From positions 1 through 12,980 of the forward strand of contig RQZE01000015.1 in NCBI GenBank assembly GCA_003858585.1: a stretch of DNA of 12,980 nt. Reading direction: 5' to 3'. How positions within the stretch are numbered: position 1 is the stretch's first letter; each line of letters opens with the position of its first letter. Below, piece by piece: positions 116-10,038 of the stretch. This DNA comes from Erysipelotrichaceae bacterium OH741_COT-311 (lineage in GTDB: Bacteria > Bacillota_I > Bacilli_A > Erysipelotrichales > Erysipelotrichaceae). The notes under the pieces are model-generated. The model ran no database searches. It had not been told where the DNA came from and was given only the letters and a program-made list of their open reading frames with translations. The position numbers and the translations under genes were made by a program.

Positions 116-976
116 ATGAAAAATAAAAAATTAGAACAAATCTTATTTACATCGTTTATCTTGTTCACTACTTCTTTGATTTATAGCTTATACTTTTTAG
201 GTTATAGAGATACAAAAGAACCTGTTACTTTATTAGTTGGGTTAAGTGATATTCAGGAAGTGAAGATTTTAGAATACGAATTTGTAAATAAAGAAGTTGT
301 AGTACCTTATGGTGAAATTGAAGAAGTATTACTTGATGACTTGCAAAGTGAAAATGGCATTCCTTGGCTTATTTCTAAAGTAAGTGATGGAGCACTCGGA
401 AGTGAAAAAGAAGTCTATCGTGAAGTTTACTTACATGATCAATTATTGGGAAATACCTTAATTCCCTACAGCAATGAAATTACAGAACCAACACCTACAG
501 TTTATAGTTATGGTTCTGATTTAGTTGAAGGAGCCTACTTTTACTCACGTAAAATTACTACTTATGGGGTTGATTGTGATGGATGTCATGTCAATGAACA
601 TGGACAAGGAGGAACAAGCAGTGGCATTATGTTGTCGCTTGATAGTGTACGTCAATCCGATGGTACATGGAAGCCGGGTATTACCTATGATGGTTACTAT
701 TTAGTCGCAACCGATCGTGCGTTGCCATTTTGTACAGTTTTAAAGTTTACCAATCCGAGAATAGAGGGCTCCGGTTTAAGTAGTGGAGAAGAGTTCTATG
801 CCTTAGTTGTTGATCGTGGTGGTGCCATCGATGATAGCGATATTGATTTTTTTGTAGGAAGTGAAGTTAATCCACTTGCAAGAAATTATAAGCGTAAAGG
901 AGTTAAAATTGAAATCGTACAATTTGGACGACGTATAAAGAATAGCTTAGGACAAAGGATGTGTAAAGTTGATTAG
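116..976 (+). CDS. Membrane-anchored 3D-domain (RlpA-like double-psi beta-barrel) cell-wall protein, YabE-like
   Basis: N-terminal KNKK followed by a hydrophobic segment (ILFTSFILFTTSLIYSLYFLGY). The C-terminus looks like a 3D domain (ITTYGVDCDGC...GGTSSGIML...LVATDRALPFCTVLKF...VVDRGGAIDDSDIDFFVGSE). Its position just upstream of rnmV-rsmA matches B. subtilis yabE. Confidence 0.75.
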   Translation: MKNKKLEQILFTSFILFTTSLIYSLYFLGYRDTKEPVTLLVGLSDIQEVKILEYEFVNKEVVVPYGEIEEVLLDDLQSENGIPWLISKVSDGALGSEKEVYREVYLHDQLLGNTLIPYSNEITEPTPTVYSYGSDLVEGAYFYSRKITTYGVDCDGCHVNEHGQGGTSSGIMLSLDSVRQSDGTWKPGITYDGYYLVATDRALPFCTVLKFTNPRIEGSGLSSGEEFYALVVDRGGAIDDSDIDFFVGSEVNPLARNYKRKGVKIEIVQFGRRIKNSLGQRMCKVD

Positions 977-3247: not shown

Positions 3248-4255
3248 ATGGGAAAATTACTATTACCAAAAGGGTATCAATCGCAATTGGATATTTTAGA
3301 AACACAAAAAGCAATTAAACTTACAAAAGATGTTTTTGAAAAAGAATTATCACAAGCTTTAAATTTAATACGTGTTTCAGCACCTTTATATGTTGAAAAA
3401 AGCAGTGGATTGAATGATGGATTAAATGGTGTAGAGCGACCGGTGTCTTTTGATTTTAAGCACATGGATTGTGTAGTAGAAGTAGTTCAATCTTTGGCAA
3501 AATGGAAGCGTAATGCTTTAAAAAAATATAATTTAAGTAAGGGTATGGGATTATATACCGATATGAATGCGATTCGTCGTGATGAAGAAATGGATAACTT
3601 ACATTCAACGTATGTTGATCAGTGGGATTTTGAATTGGTGATTGGACAAGAAGATCGTCATTTAGAGTATTTAAAAGGGGTTGTTTGTGGGATTGTGTCT
3701 TCCTTAATAAAAACACAAAAACAACTTCAACAGCACTATCCATTTTTAATGCCTATTATTCATGAAGAGGTGTATTTCATTACCAGTGAAGAGTTATTGC
3801 ATCGTTATCCTCATTTGAATAGTAAGCAGCGAGAAGATGCGATTTGTAAGGAACACAAAACAGTCTTTGTCATGCAGATTGGGGATTTGTTAAGTAATGG
3901 AGATAAACATGATGGACGTGCTTTTGATTATGATGATTGGTCATTAAATGGTGATTTATTGGTGTGGTATCCTTTGTTAGAACGAAGCATTGAGCTTAGC
4001 AGTATGGGAATTCGTGTTGATCAAGCAACGCTTAAGCAACAACAAGTCAAGGCAAAGGTTATGGATGAAGATTTAAAACAATATCATCATGATGTCTTAC
4101 ATAATCGCTTACCACTTACTATGGGTGGAGGAATTGGGCAATCACGTATTTGTATGGTATTGCTGAATAAAGCTCATGTTGGGGAAGTTCATGCTTCTAT
4201 TTGGCCGGTGTCAATGGTTGAAATGTGCTTAAATCATAATATCTTTCTATTATAG
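3248..4255 (+). CDS. asnA: Aspartate--ammonia ligase (asparagine synthetase A)
   Basis: Colinear with E. coli AsnA motifs: VSAPL, VQSLAKWKR, YVDQWDFE, LSSMGIRVD, GGGIGQSRICM. The start is set at ATG 3248 behind GGGGAGG, because the track start at 3191 lies inside the ispE terminator hairpin. Confidence 0.9.
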   Translation: MGKLLLPKGYQSQLDILETQKAIKLTKDVFEKELSQALNLIRVSAPLYVEKSSGLNDGLNGVERPVSFDFKHMDCVVEVVQSLAKWKRNALKKYNLSKGMGLYTDMNAIRRDEEMDNLHSTYVDQWDFELVIGQEDRHLEYLKGVVCGIVSSLIKTQKQLQQHYPFLMPIIHEEVYFITSEELLHRYPHLNSKQREDAICKEHKTVFVMQIGDLLSNGDKHDGRAFDYDDWSLNGDLLVWYPLLERSIELSSMGIRVDQATLKQQQVKAKVMDEDLKQYHHDVLHNRLPLTMGGGIGQSRICMVLLNKAHVGEVHASIWPVSMVEMCLNHNIFLL

Positions 4256-4272
4256 GTGCTTAGCACCTTTTT
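4254..4272 (+). terminator. Rho-independent terminator after asnA
   Basis: aggtgc (4254-4259), loop tta, gcacct (4263-4268), then T5. The asnA stop codon is inside the 5' arm. Confidence 0.7.
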
Positions 4273-4321
4273 AATTGTGCTAAAAATGTAGTAAAATAAA
4301 AAGGTATTAAGTGGAGGTTTT

Positions 4322-6067
4322 ATGGAGAATCAATTACCCCAAAAATTAATTACATTAAGAAAACATTATAACTTTTCACAGGCTTACGTTGCCAATATGA
4401 TACAAGTTTCTCCTATTGAGTACATGGGGTTTGAAAATGGTCGTTTAATGTGTAATTTAAAACAACTTAAATTATTATGTCAGTTATATGAAATAAGTCT
4501 TGATGAATTGATGCGAAATGATCAAGATGTAACGTTAAAGACGTTGTCGATGCAGCATCAAGAAGGCAAGAAACATATTAAAAAAGGATATATATTAATA
4601 GGCTTACTTTTGGGTTTATGTTTAGGTGTTATCTATACCTCATTTTTTATGCATAAACCAAAGAAAAAAGTGTTAGTGCCGATGGAAACAAAGGTCGATG
4701 TATTGTCAGCGTCCAATCGTTTTATTGCTTATATTGATCAAAAGGGTATGGTGTTTGGTCAAGGTGATAACAATAAAGGTCAACTGGATTTTACAAGTGG
4801 TGATATGAAGGCTCGTAAAGTGGTTACGGGTGTTAATTATAGCGTTGTCTTATATGAAGATGGTCAAGTTAAGGCATTTGGTTTTAGTGAAGATTATGCC
4901 AAGGAGTTGGATGATTGGAAGGATGTTGTAGATATTGCTTCGGGGGATGGTCATATCGTGGGCTTAAAGCAGGATGGAACTCTTTATTGTGTTGGAGATC
5001 GTGGTGGTAAGCAGTGTAAGGTGGATGAATGGAAAGACATTACCTTTATCAGTGCCTCACGTAATTCAACGGTGGCTATGAATCGTCAAGGACAAGTGTT
5101 TTATGCCGGAGAAAGTAAGTTTGAAAAAGCCACTACAGCGTTAAAGGATATTAAACAAATTGCCATAGGTGAAAATATGGTAGCAGTTATTAAGAGTGAT
5201 TTAACTGTTGAGTGTCTATCACAGTTTAATGGATGTAATAGTCAAGAGTGGAAAGATATTGTAGATATTGCCATTGGGGATGGTTTTGTTGTGGCATTAA
5301 ATAAACATGGAAGTGTGTTTATCAGCATTGCCAATGTGGAAATTGAAAAACAAGTACAGGCTTGGAGTCAAATTAAGGCCATTGATGCCGGAAAAGATTA
5401 TATTATTGCCTATGATGGGATTCATTTATATGGAGCCGGTAATAATACCTATAATCAATTTATTGCAGGTGATCAAGGAAATAAAACCAAGTTGGCTTCG
5501 CCGGAGAATTTGGTTGTTAAGGAGAGTAGTTCACAGGTCTTCTTTACTTGGGATAATGTGAAGAATGCATCGCATTATGAGTTCAGTATTAACTTAGAAG
5601 GTGGCTATAACGCTCGAGTTGACCAATCGCAGTTGGCGATTGATGCTGCAAAGTTTAAAGATGGTCAAACTTATAAGATTGTATTAAGTGCTTTACCAAG
5701 TGATCAACAATTTTATCATTCGGATGAAGTGATTTTCAATTATACTTACTTTGCTAAAGAGGAAACTTTACCAACAACGACAACATCGGAAGATCCGGTA
5801 GTGATTGTAGTTCCTATTAAGTACACCATTGCCCCTTTAATTGGTAAAAACAAAGAGAAGTTTGAAACCTATTTGACTGCCTTAGGTGTAGTAAATATTA
5901 CAGGAAGTGAAAGTGAAGAGCTTTGTCAAGATCAAGAAGTCAAGATTGTAAGTGTCACCGGTATTCATGAAGGGATGGAAGTCAGTGAAGAACAATTAAA
6001 GAATTTAGTTGTAGAGTATACGTATTGTAAGATAGTCAATACGGAAGAAAGTGGTAGTGAGCGATGA
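4322..6067 (+). CDS. Membrane-spanning HTH_XRE protein with an RCC1-like 7-blade propeller, Fn3-like and PASTA-like C-terminal domains
   Basis: GGAGG RBS at 4313-4317. aa 7-64 form an XRE-type HTH (LRKHYNFSQAYVANMIQVSPIEYMGFENGR...LYEISLDELM). A K-rich flanked TM lies at aa 89-110 (nt 4586-4651). Seven blades of about 37-38 aa lie at aa 125-385 with an RCC1-type signature (GQGDNNKGQL) and recurring W-K-D-I/V-x-x-I-A-x-G. aa 391-476 are Fn3-like (PENLVVKESSSQVFFTWDNV...HYEF). A Thr-rich linker LPTTTTSEDP follows. aa 497-572 are PASTA-like (APLIGKNKEKFETYLTALGV...VKIVSV...GMEV). Confidence 0.8.
   Translation: MENQLPQKLITLRKHYNFSQAYVANMIQVSPIEYMGFENGRLMCNLKQLKLLCQLYEISLDELMRNDQDVTLKTLSMQHQEGKKHIKKGYILIGLLLGLCLGVIYTSFFMHKPKKKVLVPMETKVDVLSASNRFIAYIDQKGMVFGQGDNNKGQLDFTSGDMKARKVVTGVNYSVVLYEDGQVKAFGFSEDYAKELDDWKDVVDIASGDGHIVGLKQDGTLYCVGDRGGKQCKVDEWKDITFISASRNSTVAMNRQGQVFYAGESKFEKATTALKDIKQIAIGENMVAVIKSDLTVECLSQFNGCNSQEWKDIVDIAIGDGFVVALNKHGSVFISIANVEIEKQVQAWSQIKAIDAGKDYIIAYDGIHLYGAGNNTYNQFIAGDQGNKTKLASPENLVVKESSSQVFFTWDNVKNASHYEFSINLEGGYNARVDQSQLAIDAAKFKDGQTYKIVLSALPSDQQFYHSDEVIFNYTYFAKEETLPTTTTSEDPVVIVVPIKYTIAPLIGKNKEKFETYLTALGVVNITGSESEELCQDQEVKIVSVTGIHEGMEVSEEQLKNLVVEYTYCKIVNTEESGSER
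4694..5476 (+). repeat. Seven tandem coding repeats of about 111-117 nt (propeller blades)
   Basis: The W-K/S-D/Q-I motif recurs at about nt 4916, 5030, 5147, 5249 and 5366. The DNA segments 4916-4950 and 5249-5283 are 29/35 identical and lie exactly 333 nt apart. Confidence 0.6.
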
Positions 6068-6294
6068 ATAAGCATTGGTATTATCGAAATAAAAGTGAAA
6101 AGGTCGGTCCGTTGAGTGAAGAGGAGTTTGTTAGTTGTATTCAAAATCAAATCATTCAAGAAGAGGATGAAATATGGACAAAGGGTATGAAGCATTGGTT
6201 GGCATTAAAGGATAGTATTTATAATTTTTATTTCATGAAGTTTGATACGTTAACCATGGAAGATATAGAGGAAAAAGATGATGAAATTATATAA
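6064..6294 (+). CDS. GYF_2 (DUF4339-type) domain mini-protein
   Basis: HWYYRNKSEKVGPLSEEEFVSCIQNQIIQEEDEIWTKGMKHWLAL fits the GYF_2 pattern WYY..g...GP.s.eel......g.i...t.vW..GM..W. The acidic tail is EDIEEKDDEII. The start shares ATGA with the upstream stop. Confidence 0.7.
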   Translation: MNKHWYYRNKSEKVGPLSEEEFVSCIQNQIIQEEDEIWTKGMKHWLALKDSIYNFYFMKFDTLTMEDIEEKDDEII

Positions 6295-7615
6295 CAGTAA
6301 AACATTAAAAGTAGAAGAGTTTGTACCAATTCGTAAGAATCATGTCGATATGTATGTGTGTGGGCCAACAGTGTACAATGATATTCATATTGGTAATGCT
6401 CGACCAATTGTGGTTTTTGATACCTTAAAGCGTGTCTTTTTAGCAAGTGGATACACCGTAAAATACGTTTCAAATTATACGGATGTAGATGATAAAATTA
6501 TTCACAAAGCGATGCAACAAGGGGTAAGTGAGGCAGTTATTACTCAGCGTTATATTGAGGCGTATAATCAAGTAAGAAAGGCATTGAATACGCAAGAGTT
6601 AGAGGCCGCACCAATGGTAACCGATACGATGGATGAAATCATTGATTTTATTGATCAATTGGTAATGAATGGCTATGCATATTGTGTAGATGGCGATGTG
6701 TATTTCCGTATTAATAGTATAGATACCTATGGAGAAATTTCACATCAAAACATTGAAGATTTAAAAGTTGGAGCTCGTATTGAAGAAAATACGAAAAAGG
6801 AAAATCCTCTTGATTTTTCTCTTTGGAAAAAGACGGATATGGGTATTAAGTGGCAAAGTAAGTGGGGTTTAGGAAGACCCGGATGGCATAGTGAGTGCGT
6901 TGTCATGATTTGTAATGAGTTTAAAAAGTCGCTCATTGATATTCATGGTGGTGGTATGGACTTACGTTTTCCACATCATGAAAATGAAACGGCACAGGCT
7001 CGTGCATTGTATAAAAGCGGATTAGCGAATTATTGGTTGCATAATGCGATGATCAATTTAGATGGTGAAAAGATGAGTAAGTCATTAGGTAATACGGTGG
7101 CAGCTAAGGATGTGTTAGAACAACTTGGTAGCAATGCGACACGTTGGTTATTGCTTTCGACGCATTATCGCAGTGAAGCAAATTTTTCTGATTTGACCAT
7201 TGAAACAGCGGTAAAAGAATTGGAAAAGGTGATGAATCCTTTAAAACAGGCATATATTAAGTTAGAGTTAGCTTCTTATGGATTAGAAGATGAGTATGAT
7301 CAAACAAGTTTTCATGCTTTTTTAGCTTATATGCAAGATGATTTAAATACGCCAAATGCGATGGCAGAAATTTTTGAGACGGTGAAAAAATTAAATCAAT
7401 GTATGCGTGTAAAAGACATTGATTTAAAACAAATAAATCTTCTTGTATGCTCCTTAGAAAAGATGTTGGATGTTTTAGGTATTAAGGTTACACGTATGGT
7501 ATTAACTCCTGCACAACGTGAAATGTTTGAACGTTGGAATGAAGCCAAAGCGAAAAAAGACTTTGCATTAGCGGATCAATATCGACAAACATTGATGCAA
7601 GAAGGATTGTTGTAA
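6278..7615 (+). CDS. cysS: Cysteine--tRNA ligase
   Basis: Class I signatures: YVCGPTVYNDIHIGNARP (HIGH) and GEKMSKSLGN (KMSKS). AGAGGA at 6267-6272 is the RBS. The start is ATG 6278 or 6281, both inside the GYF_2 ORF. Confidence 0.93.
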   Translation: MMKLYNSKTLKVEEFVPIRKNHVDMYVCGPTVYNDIHIGNARPIVVFDTLKRVFLASGYTVKYVSNYTDVDDKIIHKAMQQGVSEAVITQRYIEAYNQVRKALNTQELEAAPMVTDTMDEIIDFIDQLVMNGYAYCVDGDVYFRINSIDTYGEISHQNIEDLKVGARIEENTKKENPLDFSLWKKTDMGIKWQSKWGLGRPGWHSECVVMICNEFKKSLIDIHGGGMDLRFPHHENETAQARALYKSGLANYWLHNAMINLDGEKMSKSLGNTVAAKDVLEQLGSNATRWLLLSTHYRSEANFSDLTIETAVKELEKVMNPLKQAYIKLELASYGLEDEYDQTSFHAFLAYMQDDLNTPNAMAEIFETVKKLNQCMRVKDIDLKQINLLVCSLEKMLDVLGIKVTRMVLTPAQREMFERWNEAKAKKDFALADQYRQTLMQEGLL

Positions 7616-7998: not shown

Positions 7999-8693
7999 TT
8001 ATTTATGGAAGAAAACCGGTGTTTGCAGCACTTGAACAAGGGCGCATTAAACAGTTGTATCTTGTAAAGGGTAGCTCTTTTAGCATTGCCCAAAATGTAG
8101 CGATACAGTATGTCAGTAAAGATAAATTAGATGAAATGGCTAACCATGGCAATCATCAAGGCATTGTAGCAGTAGTAAAAGACTATCAAACACATCCACT
8201 ACAAGAACTTACAAGCGGAAAGCATGGCTTGATTGTGATGTTGGATGGGTTAGAAGATCCACATAATTTAGGGGCTATTTTAAGAACAGGAGATTGCATT
8301 GGAATTGATGGAATTATCTATAAGAAACATCATGCGGTTTCTTTAAATGCGACAGTGGCAAAAGTTTCCACAGGGGCAATTGAAACCGTTATGGTGTGTG
8401 AAGTAACCAACCTTACACAAACCTTAAAGGAACTTAAAAAACAAGGATATTGGATTGTGGGAACCGATGTGGAAAAAGCCAGTGATTATCGTAGTTATGC
8501 CTATGATACCAAATTAGTGTTAGTGATTGGATCAGAGGGTAAGGGCATCTCTCGTTTGGTGAAACAAGAGTGTGATTATCTTGTAAAACTACCGATGGTA
8601 GGGACGATTCAGTCTTTAAATGCCAGTGTAGCGGCTGGAATCTTGCTTTATCATATCTATGACAAGCGTCATCCGTTTATCGGAAAAAAATAG
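7995..8693 (+). CDS. rlmB: 23S rRNA (guanosine-2'-O)-methyltransferase, SpoU/TrmH family (YacO-like)
   Basis: DPHNLGAILRT, LVIGSEGKGISRL and SLNASVAAGILLY SPOUT motifs. AAGGAGGTG RBS and ATGA overlap with mrnC. Confidence 0.85.
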   Translation: MIIYGRKPVFAALEQGRIKQLYLVKGSSFSIAQNVAIQYVSKDKLDEMANHGNHQGIVAVVKDYQTHPLQELTSGKHGLIVMLDGLEDPHNLGAILRTGDCIGIDGIIYKKHHAVSLNATVAKVSTGAIETVMVCEVTNLTQTLKELKKQGYWIVGTDVEKASDYRSYAYDTKLVLVIGSEGKGISRLVKQECDYLVKLPMVGTIQSLNASVAAGILLYHIYDKRHPFIGKK

Positions 8694-8763
8694 ACAAAAA
8701 CAAAACAAAACAGAAAAAAACTCCCTAGTGTCTTTCGGTAAGATAAAGAAGGGGGTTTTCTTT

Positions 8764-9396
8764 ATGGAATATTTAAGTAATGAAGAAATCAAAGCGTTGT
8801 TGGTATTAGCACGCAAACAGGATGAACAAGCCGTCAATAAGATTATAAAAAATTATAATCGTTGTTTATGGAAGATCATACATAGTTGTTGTAGTAAGTT
8901 GTATGTGCGTAGTTGTGATTATGATGATTTGTATCAAGAAGGGGTATTGGGTATTTTGGCTGCCATTGAGCATTACAAAGACAATGAGGATACTACATTT
9001 ACAACGTATGTATATTTAATCTGTACAAGACGTATTCATAAGCTAGTGAGTAGTAATTATAAGCTTTATACGACGGAACGACAGCTATCTTCCTTAAAGG
9101 TGGAAGATGAGAGTCGTATCTATAATGTAGCAAGTGATGATGTAAGTGTTAGTGAGCAAATGCATCAGCGCTTAAAGATGGATATTTTAAAGAAGGTTAT
9201 GTTAACGTTAGATGATAAGGAGAAGCAAATCATTTATTTATATTTAAGAGAAAAGACGTATAAGGAAATTGCAGAACGTATGATGTTAAATGTAAAACAG
9301 GTAGATTATCAAATACGTAAGTGTAAATTAAAGTTGTTAGATGCGATTAAGGCATTACCGCTTAATGAAGTAGAGGGTGTGTTTGAACAGTTGTGA
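8764..9396 (+). CDS. sigH: Sigma-70 family RNA polymerase sigma factor, SigH-like by position
   Basis: Region 2 (YDDLYQEGVLGILAAIEHY) and region 4 HTH (KTYKEIAERMMLNVKQVDYQIRKCKLKL). Located after rlmB as sigH is in B. subtilis. The start is set at ATG 8764 behind AAGGGGG, because the track start at 8659 overlaps rlmB and adds a low-complexity K/N/Q leader. Confidence 0.65.
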   Translation: MEYLSNEEIKALLVLARKQDEQAVNKIIKNYNRCLWKIIHSCCSKLYVRSCDYDDLYQEGVLGILAAIEHYKDNEDTTFTTYVYLICTRRIHKLVSSNYKLYTTERQLSSLKVEDESRIYNVASDDVSVSEQMHQRLKMDILKKVMLTLDDKEKQIIYLYLREKTYKEIAERMMLNVKQVDYQIRKCKLKLLDAIKALPLNEVEGVFEQL

Positions 9397-9401
9397 AATA
9401 T

Positions 9402-9434
9402 AAAAGAATTAACGTATTTTACGTTAATTCTTTT
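9402..9434. terminator. Bidirectional rho-independent terminator between convergent genes
   Basis: Perfect 15-bp stem: aaaagaattaacgta (9402-9416), loop ttt, tacgttaattctttt (9420-9434). The A-run and T-run at the stem ends allow function on both strands. Confidence 0.8.
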
Positions 9435-9438
9435 ATGT

Positions 9439-10038
9439 TTATTTTATTAAGTTTTTGTAGATGTCGATTAACTCTGTTTTTTGTTCATCGTTTACTTCTT
9501 CTTGTGTGTTGATGTTGAAACTTGGTACTAGGGCAAGATGTCCGCCTGTAATGGTTCCGTTTTTAACCCCTAAAACAAGTGGTACATATAAATCACCATC
9601 TTTTAAGAATGGTTTTGTTTTTTCAACGAAGGCTGTATATTCTTCATCGGTAATTGGTTGTGAAACATCTACGTAATAGAATGTTCCTTCTTCACTGCCT
9701 GCAAGTTCGTTGTAAACTGGCATCGCTTTTTGACACCACGGGCATCCTGCATAACCTAAAAATACCCAGTAAGTATCTTGATCTGTACCAAGTTTTTCTG
9801 TTAATGCAACAAGTGATAAAGGTTTTACATTTGATTGGGTTTTTACAAGGTCATAGCTTGCTAAATCGACATATTCCATTATTTCTACGGGAGTAGTTGT
9901 TTCGGTTGTCTCCATGTTTGTTGTTTCCGGTAGCGTTGTTGTTTCCACTTGTGTGGGTTGTGTTTCTTCTTTAACCGGTTTGCTTGAACATCCTGTTACA
10001 ACAAGTGCCAATGTAAGTGCTAATAATAATTTTTTCAT
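9439..10038 (-). CDS. Thioredoxin-fold lipoprotein with CPWC active site
   Basis: Lipoprotein signal MKKLLLALTLALVVTGC (lipobox VTGC). T/E-rich linker ETTTLPETTNMETTETTTP. Motif WVFLGYAGCPWCQKAMPVY (CPWC encoded at 9733-9744). AAGGAAG RBS 7 nt before the ATG. Confidence 0.8.
   Translation of the reverse strand: MKKLLLALTLALVVTGCSSKPVKEETQPTQVETTTLPETTNMETTETTTPVEIMEYVDLASYDLVKTQSNVKPLSLVALTEKLGTDQDTYWVFLGYAGCPWCQKAMPVYNELAGSEEGTFYYVDVSQPITDEEYTAFVEKTKPFLKDGDLYVPLVLGVKNGTITGGHLALVPSFNINTQEEVNDEQKTELIDIYKNLIK

What the first reader, a model, noticed from the sequence alone, without database searches (positions are those of the whole stretch)
4322..6294. Membrane-tethered HTH_XRE protein with RCC1 propeller, Fn3 and PASTA-like domains, translationally coupled to a GYF_2 mini-protein
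Seen in the sequence: one 581-aa ORF combines a cytoplasmic XRE-type HTH, a single TM flanked by Lys-rich stretches on both sides, seven RCC1-like blades, an Fn3-like domain, a Thr-rich linker and a C-terminal module. The C-terminal module fits the PASTA pattern by eye (P-L-I-G-K...L...G, then beta strands). Its TGA stop shares ATGA with the start of a 76-aa GYF_2 (DUF4339-type) protein, which in turn overlaps cysS.

Inference on topology: because the HTH must be cytoplasmic, the propeller, Fn3 and PASTA-like parts should be extracytoplasmic.

Two hypotheses follow. The first is a one-component transmembrane sensor that couples a cell-surface or peptidoglycan-derived signal directly to DNA binding, that is, a kinase-less PASTA sensor. 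The second is a RodZ-like scaffold, since RodZ has the same plan of HTH, basic juxtamembrane region, TM and outside domain, and there the HTH binds MreB rather than DNA.

I know of no characterised protein with this combination or any functional link to GYF_2 proteins. It is my top candidate for an undescribed module in this window. The PASTA call and the functional ideas are not proven.
Basis: partly seen in the sequence, partly recalled or inferred. Interest (0 to 1): 0.7.

Follow-up and report, generated by a model that had tools for sequence, protein, structure and literature searches.

The report
Membrane-tethered HTH receptor with GYF partner
A two-gene module seen only in Erysipelotrichaceae encodes a single-pass membrane protein with a DNA-binding-type domain inside the cell and a propeller, a spacer and a PASTA-like (cell-wall-sensor-like) domain outside, always followed by a tiny cytoplasmic adaptor protein; nobody has studied it, and it may link cell-surface sensing to the cytoplasm without a kinase.

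Summary
ORF 4322-6067 (581 aa) contains an XRE-type helix-turn-helix (HTH), one transmembrane helix, a seven-bladed BLIP-II-type RCC1_2 propeller, an Fn3-like sandwich, a Thr-rich linker and a C-terminal module. The modelled fold of that module matches PASTA domains of PknB, Stk1 and PBPs, but its sequence does not match the PASTA family.

Its stop overlaps (ATGA) a 76-aa GYF_2 protein, whose end overlaps cysS. The family is confined to Erysipelotrichaceae: 18 GTDB species genomes and about 35 clusters at 50% identity. In all 22 related loci the receptor gene is directly followed by the GYF gene, usually overlapping by 4-17 nt. The pair stays together in three different genomic contexts.

Family-wide Lys/Arg counts, invariant ectodomain cysteine pairs and the domain types all support an N-in/C-out topology.

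Function is unresolved. The HTH resembles DNA-binding Cro/CI regulators and lacks RodZ signatures, so I favour a transmembrane one-component regulator with a GYF cofactor (about 0.4). No conserved operator was found, and the pair heads a housekeeping operon, so a RodZ-like scaffold remains a serious rival (about 0.3).

I rate it a new variant of a known kind, of moderate interest.

The parts
4254..4268 (+). Terminator-like hairpin that ends the upstream asnA gene. It marks the start of a new transcription unit.
   Evidence: The next terminator-like site on the + strand lies at 9396-9440, after the sigma-factor gene.
4313..4317 (+). Shine-Dalgarno sequence GGAGG, 4 nt before the ATG of the receptor gene.
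   Evidence: Read from the sequence. Most relatives lack it and instead carry an extended -10 box next to the start codon.
4322..4519 (+). Cytoplasmic XRE-type (Cro/CI) HTH domain, aa 1-66, five helices.
   Evidence: Pfam HTH_19 E 1e-5 and HTH_3 E 1.9e-4. 29 of 31 family members hit HTH_3, best E 1.8e-10. AF2 helices span 5-64 with pLDDT 92-97. The family profile hits DdrO, PezA, ImmR, SinR, HipB and lambda cI in the PDB.
4520..4585 (+). Disordered cytoplasmic linker, aa 67-88, with the Lys-rich juxtamembrane stretch KKHIKK.
   Evidence: pLDDT is below 50 for residues 77-89. Relatives carry an NTDE(I/L)NIEYF motif here, which is deleted in this lineage.
4586..4654 (+). Single transmembrane helix (signal anchor), aa 89-111.
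   Evidence: It is the only hydrophobic segment (Kyte-Doolittle up to 2.35). AF2 predicts a helix at 89-110. Family-wide Lys+Arg counts are 138 on the N-flank and 64 on the C-flank.
4691..5461 (+). Extracytoplasmic seven-bladed RCC1_2 propeller of the BLIP-II type, aa 124-380. It carries a semi-conserved Cys pair, C223/C232.
   Evidence: RCC1_2 68.1 bits and WD40_RLD E 4.5e-19. BLIP-II is the best PDB match by sequence (E 6e-6) and by fold (E 1e-16, TM 0.72). AF2 shows seven groups of three strands. Cys conservation is 21/31 (C223) and 29/31 (C232).
5495..5755 (+). Fn3-like beta-sandwich, aa 392-478.
   Evidence: AF2 predicts seven strands with pLDDT about 90. Pfam fn3 is above the cut-off in homologue P0002 (26 bits) but gives only weak Fn3-like hits in the window protein. 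4 of 31 members hit fn3.
5756..5812 (+). Disordered Thr-rich linker, aa 479-497 (ETLPTTTTSEDP...).
   Evidence: Read from the sequence. pLDDT is below 50 for residues 481-497.
5813..6037 (+). C-terminal PASTA-like module, aa 498-572, with two invariant cysteines (C535, C569).
   Evidence: The AF2 model of the module alone has pLDDT 90. Foldseek top PDB hits are PASTA domains of Stk1, PknB, PBP1 and PBP2x. No Pfam PASTA hit in the window protein. 1 of 31 members hits PASTA at E 0.0028. Both cysteines are present in 31 of 31 members.
6064..6294 (+). 76-aa cytoplasmic GYF_2 mini-protein. It is translationally coupled to the receptor gene through the ATGA at 6064-6067, and its last 17 nt overlap cysS.
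   Evidence: GYF_2 42.5 bits against a cut-off of 25.8, matching aa 5-50. Homologues lie directly downstream of the receptor gene in 22 of 22 loci. More than 300 related mini-proteins were found; the 120 listed are all 60-67 aa, and every source name given is Erysipelotrichaceae.
6278..7615 (+). cysS, the first housekeeping gene of the downstream unit (cysS, mini-RNase III, SpoU-type methylase, sigma factor). It is context, not part of the module.
   Evidence: Pfam hits. The same gene order is found in most related loci.

Best explanation
**What it is.** This is a two-gene transmembrane signalling module specific to Erysipelotrichaceae.

**Receptor gene.** It encodes a bitopic N-in/C-out receptor.
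- A Cro/CI-type HTH sits in the cytoplasm on a short disordered tether.
- Outside the membrane, in order, are a BLIP-II-type seven-bladed propeller, an Fn3 spacer, a flexible Thr-rich linker and a distal PASTA-like domain.
- The PASTA-like domain is probably stapled by a disulfide.

**Partner gene.** It is translationally coupled to the receptor gene. It encodes a soluble 60-76-aa GYF_2 adaptor that most likely binds the receptor's cytoplasmic part in a 1:1 complex.

**Proposed mechanism (inferred, not shown).** Binding of a cell-wall or cell-surface ligand, or of a partner protein, by the ectodomain changes the receptor's oligomeric state. This brings two HTH domains together so that they bind DNA from the membrane. 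This is how ToxR/CadC/BcrR-type transmembrane transcription regulators are thought to work, and how PASTA kinases are thought to dimerise. The GYF protein would act as cofactor or antagonist of the HTH.

**Shown versus inferred.** The domain architecture, the topology indicators and the gene pairing are shown. DNA binding, the ligand and the GYF contact are inferred.
For: **Architecture**
- The AF2 models have pLDDT 86 (full length) and 90 (C-terminal module).
- Foldseek matches the propeller to BLIP-II (E 1e-16).
- Foldseek matches the C-terminal module to PASTA domains (probability 1.0, TM 0.57-0.73).

**HTH type**
- The family profile matches DNA-binding XRE regulators in the PDB: DdrO, PezA, ImmR, SinR, HipB and lambda cI, down to E 5e-8.
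- NCBIfam's best hit is the phage repressor RstR (E 8.7e-10).
- The SQ and ENG(R) signatures of Cro/CI domains are nearly invariant.
- The HTH is the best-conserved part of the protein, with 47% mean pairwise identity against 37% for the propeller and 33% for the PASTA-like module.

**Topology**
- Lys+Arg counts are 138 on the N-flank and 64 on the C-flank.
- Conserved Cys pairs occur only in the ectodomain.

**Gene pairing**
- The GYF gene follows the receptor gene in 22 of 22 loci.
- In 17 of these the two ORFs overlap by 4-17 nt.
- The pair is kept in the cysS operon, between mnmG and mnmE (L002), and next to MscL and Fic/Wzz genes (L010).
- The eight other RCC1-propeller loci, L023-L030, have no GYF match.

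**Precedents**
- Membrane-bound one-component regulators, including the Firmicute BcrR, are widespread, and several have a partner encoded directly downstream (PMC10269533).
- Bacterial GYF domains are normally the cytosolic adaptor end of membrane receptors (PMC11135422).
- RCC1_2 ectodomains are also found fused to Ser/Thr kinases, TIR domains and zinc ribbons in other bacteria (precomputed Pfam).
Against: - No conserved palindromic operator lies upstream of the gene in 15 non-redundant loci. The best half-site occurs in 3 of 15, no better than shuffled controls.
- No obvious regulated target genes lie nearby.
- The pair heads a housekeeping unit (cysS, mini-RNase III, rRNA methylase, sigma factor). 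This suggests constitutive expression and a structural role.
- By my own alignment of the ENG motif to phage 434 Cro/repressor, recalled from memory, the positions that should contact bases are mostly hydrophobic or small (V/P, L/I, M35, G/A). This would also fit a protein-binding surface.
- The window protein's own HTH scores are slightly below the Pfam cut-offs.
- The PASTA-like module has no sequence-level PASTA membership.
- One natural member, P0005 in L004, lacks the PASTA-like module altogether.
- No contact between the GYF protein and the receptor could be tested.
Confidence: 0.4

Rival explanations
1. RodZ-like morphogenetic scaffold. The HTH is a protein-binding domain that docks a cytoplasmic cytoskeletal or elongasome/divisome component, directly or through the GYF adaptor. 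The propeller and PASTA-like ectodomain engage peptidoglycan synthases (PBP or beta-lactamase fold) or the wall. No DNA binding is involved.
For: - The overall plan matches RodZ: a five-helix XRE HTH, a disordered basic juxtamembrane region, a TM helix and an outside domain (RodZ description in PMC9804626).
- The gene sits at the head of a housekeeping operon and behaves as a clade-wide single-copy gene.
- No operator was found.
- The HTH is the most conserved part, and positions on the recognition helix are hydrophobic and conserved (Y34 invariant, M35 at 90% or more).
- GYF domains are protein-protein adaptors of membrane complexes that include MreB-linked machinery (PMC11135422).
- Both ectodomain types have historical links to PBP or beta-lactamase-fold proteins: BLIP-II binds class A beta-lactamases, and PASTA domains occur in PBPs.
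Against: - There is no HTH_25 hit and no DUF4115/RodZ_C hit.
- RodZ structures 3fym and 4gqm are not among the PDB hits of the HTH profile at E<=0.1.
- The RodZ helix-4 signature (Y-x-R/K-G-F/Y-I-R-x-Y-A), visible in the E. coli RodZ versus 3fym alignment, is absent from the family consensus.
- Whether these genomes have MreB or a canonical RodZ could not be checked.
Confidence: 0.3
2. Proteolysis-released regulator. The receptor holds a Cro/CI-type repressor at the membrane. A surface signal triggers cleavage in or near the membrane, which frees the HTH to act in the cytoplasm. The GYF protein protects or exposes the cleavage-prone linker, in the way TcpH and ToxS protect TcpP and ToxR.
For: - A disordered linker separates the HTH from the TM helix.
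- Most members carry a conserved short motif, NTDEINIEYF, in that linker.
- The small partner is encoded downstream, as for ToxS and TcpH (PMC10269533, PMC11323476).
Against: - No protease gene is associated with the locus.
- A monomeric 70-aa HTH released without a dimerisation domain would bind DNA poorly.
- The linker motif is deleted in the window lineage although the GYF partner is kept.
- The partner here is cytosolic, not membrane-bound or extracytoplasmic.
Confidence: 0.12
3. Surface binding protein or inhibitor with no signalling role. The propeller acts outside the cell like BLIP-II, binding and neutralising a secreted or foreign enzyme, or it acts as an adhesin. The PASTA-like domain anchors it in the wall. 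The N-terminal HTH is only a folded cytoplasmic cap of the signal anchor.
For: - BLIP-II is the closest solved structure by sequence and by fold.
- The ectodomain evolves faster than the HTH, as surface proteins often do.
Against: - The HTH is the most conserved part of the protein (47% against 29-37% for the ectodomain parts).
- A cytoplasmic partner gene is strictly co-inherited and translationally coupled. Neither fact is expected for a passive anchor.
Confidence: 0.08

Closest known systems
Transmembrane transcription regulators (ToxR, TcpP, CadC; in Firmicutes, BcrR of Enterococcus faecalis)
   Same: A DNA-binding-type domain and a membrane anchor lie in one polypeptide, with the sensing part outside or in the membrane. 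Several have a small partner encoded immediately downstream (ToxS, TcpH, PsaF) (PMC10269533). From my own knowledge, BcrR also carries an N-terminal XRE-type HTH.
   Different: ToxR, CadC and TcpP use winged-helix OmpR-type domains. BcrR has four TM helices and no large ectodomain (my own knowledge). Their partners are membrane or periplasmic proteins, not a soluble cytoplasmic GYF_2 protein. None has a propeller, Fn3 or PASTA-like ectodomain. DNA binding is not shown here.
RodZ (YmfM)
   Same: Both are bitopic and N-in, with a five-helix XRE-family HTH, a disordered positively charged juxtamembrane region, a TM helix, an extracellular linker and a beta-rich outside domain (PMC9804626).
   Different: This protein has no HTH_25 hit, no DUF4115 and no helix-4 MreB-binding signature. 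Its ectodomain is about 470 aa with three different domains. It has an obligate GYF partner.
PASTA Ser/Thr kinases and PBPs (PknB, PrkC/Stk1, StkP, PBP2x, PBP1)
   Same: The C-terminal module has the PASTA fold: TM 0.57-0.66 on the query and up to 0.73 on single PASTA domains, rmsd 2.3-3.1 A. It lies outside the membrane of a bitopic signalling protein.
   Different: - It is a single copy, distal to the membrane, after a propeller and an Fn3 domain.
- It has no kinase and no transpeptidase.
- It has no sequence-level membership. The window protein has no Pfam PASTA hit, a family-profile search of 1.84 billion proteins returned no PASTA kinase or PBP, and hhalign against the PknB PASTA domains gave 7% probability.
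- It has an invariant Cys pair of its own.
BLIP-II (beta-lactamase inhibitory protein II, Streptomyces exfoliatus)
   Same: Both are seven-bladed propellers with three-stranded blades of about 37-40 residues (PMC6121496). The two share 23-24% identity. Both are extracytoplasmic.
   Different: BLIP-II is a free secreted 28-kDa protein. Here the propeller is membrane-anchored and embedded in a multidomain receptor. Binding to a beta-lactamase or PBP was not tested.
GYF domain of GltJ (Myxococcus gliding machinery) and other bacterial GYF_2 proteins
   Same: It is a cytosolic GYF_2 fold associated with a membrane receptor. GYF acts as a protein-protein adaptor (PMC11135422).
   Different: In most bacteria the GYF domain is fused to the N-terminus of the membrane protein, often together with a zinc ribbon. 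Here it is a stand-alone 60-76-aa protein encoded next to a receptor whose cytoplasmic domain is an HTH. No proline-rich ligand is evident in the window receptor's cytoplasmic part.
SinR/SinI-type pairs (XRE regulator plus small adjacent antagonist protein)
   Same: An XRE-type HTH protein and a protein of about 60 aa are encoded side by side and presumably form a complex. This is recalled from the B. subtilis literature and was not tested here.
   Different: SinR is soluble, and SinI pairs with it through helical hooks. Here the HTH protein is a membrane receptor and the small protein has a GYF fold.

Membership tests
PASTA (PF03793) | Match to the family profile at or above the curated score | tested here: not met
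   - No PASTA hit for the window protein, even at E<=10 on the isolated module.
- Only 1 of 31 family members hits, at E 0.0028.
- The family profile finds no PASTA chain in the PDB at E<=10.
- It finds no PASTA kinase or PBP among 1.84 billion representative proteins.
- hhalign against the four PknB PASTA domains gives 6.8% probability and aligns only beta1-alpha1.
PASTA (PF03793) | Small alpha/beta fold: one strand, one helix, then a three-stranded sheet, about 70 residues | tested here: met
PASTA (PF03793) | Attached to a penicillin-binding protein or Ser/Thr kinase; binds muropeptide, lipid II or beta-lactam | tested here: not met
   The architecture has neither a kinase nor a transpeptidase. 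Ligand binding cannot be tested with these tools.
RCC1_2 / BLIP-II-type propeller | Profile match above the cut-off, and seven blades of three strands | tested here: met
   RCC1_2 scores 68.1 bits against a cut-off of 22 and hits 31 of 31 members. AF2 shows seven three-strand groups. BLIP-II is the top PDB hit by sequence (E 6e-6) and by fold (E 1e-16, TM 0.72).
RCC1_2 / BLIP-II-type propeller | Picomolar binding to class A beta-lactamases | not testable with these tools
   Needs purified ectodomain and enzyme assays.
XRE / Cro-CI HTH (HTH_3, HTH_19) | Profile match and a five-helix fold | tested here: met
   The window protein is slightly below the cut-offs (25.8 against 30.2; 21.9 against 23). 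However, 29 of 31 members hit HTH_3, best E 1.8e-10. AF2 shows five helices with pLDDT above 90. The profile hits DNA-binding XRE regulators in the PDB.
XRE / Cro-CI HTH (HTH_3, HTH_19) | Sequence-specific DNA binding to a palindromic operator | tested here: inconclusive
   No conserved inverted repeat was found upstream of the gene in 15 loci. Targets elsewhere in the genome could not be examined.
RodZ | HTH_25-type HTH with the helix-4 MreB-binding signature | tested here: not met
   No HTH_25 hit. RodZ chains 3fym and 4gqm are absent from the PDB hits of the family profile. The motif Y-x-R/K-G-F/Y-I-R-x-Y-A seen is absent from the consensus.
RodZ | Extracytoplasmic DUF4115 (RodZ_C) domain | tested here: not met
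   No such hit in any of the 31 members.
RodZ | Bitopic N-in topology with a basic juxtamembrane region between HTH and TM | tested here: met
   The plan is as described for RodZ in PMC9804626.
Transmembrane transcription regulators (one-component, membrane-bound) | DNA-binding-type domain and TM segment in one polypeptide, with an extracytoplasmic sensor part | tested here: met
Transmembrane transcription regulators (one-component, membrane-bound) | Regulates transcription from the membrane | not testable with these tools
   Needs ChIP or DAP-seq and mutant transcriptomes.
GYF_2 (PF14237, DUF4339) | Profile match above the cut-off | tested here: met
   42.5 bits against 25.8 for the window protein and 36 bits for the L001 homologue. 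The other relatives are sub-threshold but align throughout.
GYF_2 (PF14237, DUF4339) | Usual bacterial arrangement: N-terminal cytosolic domain fused to a membrane receptor module (PMC11135422) | tested here: not met
   Here it is a stand-alone soluble protein of 60-81 aa with no hydrophobic segment. The receptor is encoded by the neighbouring gene.
Fibronectin type III | Profile match and a seven-strand sandwich | tested here: met
   AF2 shows seven strands at 398-475 with pLDDT about 90. fn3 is above the cut-off in P0002 (26 against 25). The window protein has only weak Fn3-like hits: fn3_6 E 0.13 and Pur_ac_phosph_N E 0.023.

The most novel reading that the evidence does not exclude
This would be a kinase-less cell-wall sensor. 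Ligand-driven clustering of a propeller plus PASTA-like ectodomain would directly dimerise a membrane-tethered Cro/CI HTH. A stand-alone GYF_2 mini-protein would be the obligate cytoplasmic second component. Together they would form a new two-protein, non-phosphorelay transmembrane signalling system. It would also give the first assigned role to a free-standing bacterial GYF_2 protein.
Probability: 0.2. Interest if true: 0.75.

Novelty: new variant of a known kind. Interest (0 to 1): 0.5.

Why it matters
- **PASTA outputs.** PASTA domains are known as the wall-sensing parts of kinases and PBPs. A PASTA-fold domain wired to an HTH instead of a kinase would widen the known outputs of this sensor type.
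- **Propeller ectodomains.** It would show that BLIP-II-type propellers serve as receptor ectodomains in Gram-positive bacteria.
- **GYF_2 proteins.** The strict, translationally coupled pairing with a free GYF_2 protein gives a tractable entry point to bacterial GYF domains. Only one of these (GltJ) has a known ligand.
- **Limits.** The family is confined to uncultured or poorly studied rumen, gut and oral Erysipelotrichaceae. This limits both its reach and the ease of experiments.

Tried and rejected
- **PASTA at sequence level.** All routes were negative or marginal:
  - Pfam on the isolated modules
  - family profile against the PDB
  - family profile against 1.84 billion representatives
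  - hhalign against the PknB PASTA domains
- **Autoregulatory operator.** A search for shared inverted repeats in the 110 nt upstream of 15 non-redundant family genes did no better than shuffled sequences.
- **Other architectures with this HTH.** A profile search with the HTH alone returned only fragments of the same family. It could not show whether similar HTHs sit on other ectodomains.
- **GYF against the PDB.** The GYF profile found nothing meaningful.
- **RNA elements.** An Rfam scan of the window found no T-box or other RNA element.
- **Anti-sigma idea rejected.** I considered an anti-sigma role towards the sigma factor three genes downstream. From my own knowledge, B. subtilis has the same cysS-mrnC-rlmB-sigH order, so the linkage looks ancestral to Firmicutes. 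The pair also occurs away from it in L002 and L010.
- **Toxin-antitoxin or mobile-element reading rejected.** The pair sits at a fixed core-genome position in most species, and the HTH protein is a 580-aa membrane receptor.
- **Literature.** Searches found no description of this architecture.


Full report
**Setting**

The window is a low-GC (about 35%) stretch of core genome. It is 98% identical at protein level to contig JAUMYM010000001 of an Erysipelotrichaceae MAG (locus L005).

The gene order is rnmV, rsmA, ispE and asnA; then the two genes of the finding; then cysS, mini-RNase III, a SpoU-type rRNA methylase and a sigma-70-family factor. After these come a lipoprotein on the other strand, a class I aldolase, secE and nusG.

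A terminator-like hairpin follows asnA at 4254-4268. The next one on that strand lies at 9396-9440. The receptor gene, the GYF gene, cysS and the next three genes therefore look like one transcription unit. Rfam finds no T-box or other RNA element in the window.

**Check of the observation**

ORF 4322-6067 (581 aa) and ORF 6064-6294 (76 aa) are as described. The ATGA overlap and the 17-nt overlap with the cysS start are read directly from the sequence.

Pfam gives these results:
- RCC1_2: 68.1 bits (cut-off 22)
- WD40_RLD: E 4.5e-19
- HTH_19: E 1e-5 (25.8 bits, just under the cut-off)
- HTH_3: E 1.9e-4
- GYF_2 for the small protein: 42.5 bits (cut-off 25.8)

An AlphaFold2 model built on a 31-sequence family alignment has mean pLDDT 86. 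It shows:
- five helices at 5-64
- a disordered linker
- one TM helix at 89-110
- seven groups of three strands at 128-373
- a seven-strand sandwich at 398-475
- a disordered Thr-rich linker at 481-497
- a compact beta-alpha-beta-beta-beta-alpha-beta module at 500-570

BLIP-II is the closest solved structure to the propeller, both by sequence (E 6e-6) and by fold (E 1e-16, TM 0.72, 23-24% identity). BLIP-II is known for exactly this unusual seven-blade, three-strand design (PMC6121496). The propeller ectodomain of the plant receptor kinase ACR4 also matches.

Fn3 is below detection in the window protein. It is above the Pfam cut-off in the 42%-identical homologue P0002.

**The PASTA question**

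By sequence the C-terminal module is not a PASTA family member.
- Pfam gives no hit, even at E<=10 on the isolated module of five members.
- Only 1 of 31 members hits, at E 0.0028.
- A family-profile search of the PDB at E<=10 returns no PASTA chain.
- A family-profile search of 1.84 billion representative proteins returns no PASTA kinase or PBP. The 45 hits are almost all proteins of the same architecture.
- hhalign against the four verified PknB PASTA domains aligns only the first strand and helix, in the right register, with 7% probability.

By fold the module is PASTA-like. The model of the module alone has pLDDT 90. Foldseek against the PDB returns PASTA domains of S. aureus Stk1/PrkC, M. 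tuberculosis PknB, S. aureus PBP1 and pneumococcal PBP2x as essentially all hits with a meaningful TM-score. TM is 0.57-0.66 on the query and 0.70-0.73 on single PASTA domains. Rmsd is 2.3-3.1 A and probability 0.87-1.0. The interleaved phosphatase hits have TM about 0.2 and are noise.

Two cysteines in this module (C535, C569) are invariant in 31 of 31 sequences. This suggests a disulfide.

**Topology**

The window protein has Lys-rich stretches on both sides of the TM helix, which makes it ambiguous on its own. Across 31 family members the 15 residues before the TM segment hold 138 Lys+Arg, against 64 after it.

Conserved cysteine pairs occur only after the TM segment (C223/C232 and C535/C569). 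From general knowledge, Fn3, PASTA-like and BLIP-II-like domains and Thr/Pro-rich linkers are typical of extracytoplasmic proteins. The same C-terminal module also occurs once in a protein with an FMN_bind domain (P0066). From my own knowledge, FMN_bind domains are usually extracytoplasmic.

N-in/C-out is well supported but not proven.

**Family and neighbours**

- Full-length relatives occur only in Erysipelotrichaceae, including Solobacterium-labelled MAGs. They come from rumen and gut samples; the isolate name of the window's own MAG (S17M_Sa_23) may point to saliva.
- They comprise 18 species genomes in GTDB (L005-L022) and about 35 clusters at 50% identity.
- In all 22 related loci with downstream DNA, the receptor gene is followed directly by a homologue of the GYF mini-protein.
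- In 17 of these the two ORFs overlap by 4-17 nt. In three they are 1-25 nt apart. In two the GYF start codon is ambiguous.
- The mini-protein subfamily has more than 300 members. The 120 listed are all 60-67 aa, and every source name given is Erysipelotrichaceae.
- Most loci continue with cysS, mini-RNase III, rlmB and the sigma factor.
- The pair is also found between mnmG and mnmE (L002) and between MscL and Fic/Wzz genes (L010).
- Other RCC1-propeller genes (L023-L030) have no GYF neighbour.

The pairing is therefore a property of this receptor family. It is not a property of the cysS locus or of RCC1 proteins in general.

One member (P0005, L004) lacks the PASTA-like module.

**What the cytoplasmic side looks like**

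The HTH is the best-conserved part of the protein. Mean pairwise identities are as follows:

| Part | Mean pairwise identity |
|---|---|
| HTH | 47% |
| Propeller | 37% |
| PASTA-like module | 33% |
| Fn3 | 29% |
| Linker | 22% |
| TM helix | 17% |

The HTH profile matches DNA-binding Cro/CI-type regulators in the PDB: DdrO, PezA, ImmR, SinR, HipB and lambda cI. NCBIfam's best hit is the phage repressor RstR.

RodZ markers are absent:
- There is no HTH_25 or DUF4115 hit.
- RodZ chains 3fym and 4gqm are not among the PDB hits.
- The helix-4 motif seen in the E. coli RodZ versus 3fym alignment is missing.

Several points count against a simple autoregulator:
- No shared inverted repeat lies upstream of the gene in 15 non-redundant loci.
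- By my own alignment of the ENG motif to phage 434 Cro/repressor, recalled from memory, the positions that would face DNA are mostly hydrophobic or small. M35 is nearly invariant and Y34 invariant.
- The pair heads a housekeeping operon.

Most relatives carry a conserved linker motif, NTDE(I/L)NIEYF, between the HTH and the TM helix. It is degenerate in three lineages and deleted in the window lineage. The same four lineages carry a three-residue insertion in the first hairpin of their GYF protein. This is compatible with a contact between the two, but also with shared descent.

**Interpretation**

The architecture, topology indicators and gene pairing are solid. The mechanism is inferred.

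I favour a membrane-bound one-component regulator of the ToxR/CadC/BcrR kind (PMC10269533), at about 0.4. Its ectodomain would sense a wall- or surface-derived ligand or partner. Its HTH would be activated by clustering. The GYF protein would act as cytoplasmic cofactor or antagonist. Bacterial GYF domains are normally the cytosolic adaptor end of membrane receptors (PMC11135422). Here that arrangement appears to be split into two genes.

A RodZ-like scaffold, in which the HTH binds protein rather than DNA, is nearly as plausible (about 0.3). It works like RodZ in plan, although membership in the RodZ family fails.

Regulated proteolysis (about 0.12) and a purely extracellular BLIP-II-like binding role (about 0.08) are less likely. 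An anti-sigma role and a toxin-antitoxin reading were rejected (see Tried and rejected).

**Novelty and score**

No characterised family with this combination was found in Pfam or NCBIfam naming, PDB searches or the literature searches.

All parts are known domain types, and membrane-tethered HTH proteins are a known class. I therefore rate it a new variant of a known kind. The unusual features are:
- a PASTA-fold domain with an HTH output instead of a kinase
- a BLIP-II-type propeller used as a receptor ectodomain
- an obligate free-standing GYF_2 partner

Interest is moderate (0.5). The pairing is striking and testable. However, function is unknown, and the family is narrow and sits in uncultured bacteria.

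Noticed in passing
L007 7960-8000, L011 2030-2070, L012, L013, L016, L018, L019, L010, L002, L003 (upstream of the receptor gene); window 4269-4321: In most relatives an extended -10 box (TGnTAnAAT) ends 4-9 nt before the start codon and there is no Shine-Dalgarno sequence. The receptor mRNA is therefore probably leaderless. The window and L001 instead have a short leader with GGAGG or AGGAG.
   Followed up: partly
window 6064-7615: cysS has no T-box leader (Rfam found nothing), and its start codon lies inside the GYF ORF. Terminator-like hairpins occur only at 4254-4268 and 9396-9440. cysS, mini-RNase III, rlmB and the sigma factor therefore seem to be transcribed from the receptor gene's promoter in this clade.
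   Followed up: partly
L004 128-1654 (protein P0005): This is a natural 508-aa family member that ends right after the Fn3 domain and lacks the PASTA-like module. It still has the GYF gene 25 nt downstream. The contig was seen in two samples.
   Followed up: partly
proteins P0066 and P0061: The PASTA-like two-cysteine module also occurs in a 643-aa protein with an FMN_bind domain (P0066). It also appears fused after ribosomal protein L19 (P0061), which is probably an assembly or gene-calling artefact.
   Followed up: no
window 4520-4585; L006-L022 equivalents: The cytoplasmic linker motif NTDE(I/L)NIEYF is conserved in the rumen clade, degenerate in L001, L002 and L010, and deleted in the window lineage. 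The same four lineages have a three-residue insertion in the first hairpin of their GYF protein. The window's GYF protein also has a long acidic tail.
   Followed up: partly
window 9439-10038 (- strand): This is a lipoprotein (LPAM_1 signal) with a Thr/Glu-rich linker and a CPWC motif, reminiscent of extracytoplasmic thioredoxin-like oxidoreductases. No Pfam thioredoxin hit was found. It could be relevant to the conserved ectodomain cysteine pairs.
   Followed up: partly
proteins P0012, P0015, P0016, P0018, P0023, P0026: According to the precomputed Pfam lists, related RCC1_2 propellers in other bacteria are combined with Ser/Thr kinase domains, TIR domains, zinc ribbons, TPR repeats and an Hsp70/MreB-like domain. 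This suggests that the propeller is an interchangeable ectodomain or sensor module.
   Followed up: no
window 4986-5017 (aa 223-232): A second, partly conserved cysteine pair (C223 in 21/31, C232 in 29/31 members) lies in one hairpin of propeller blade 3.
   Followed up: no
L015 (CAVCTP010000072.1): This contig carries the typical Erysipelotrichaceae receptor-GYF-cysS-mrnC-rlmB arrangement but belongs to a bin labelled Tannerellaceae. It is probably mis-binned.
   Followed up: no
window 116-976 and 8659-9396: The first ORF (286 aa) has no significant Pfam match, only a weak 3D-domain hit (E 0.043). The mechanical sigma-factor ORF starts 35 nt inside rlmB, and the sigma-70 region 2 match begins only at residue 74. 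The true start may therefore be the internal Met at residue 36 (MEYLSNEE...).
   Followed up: no
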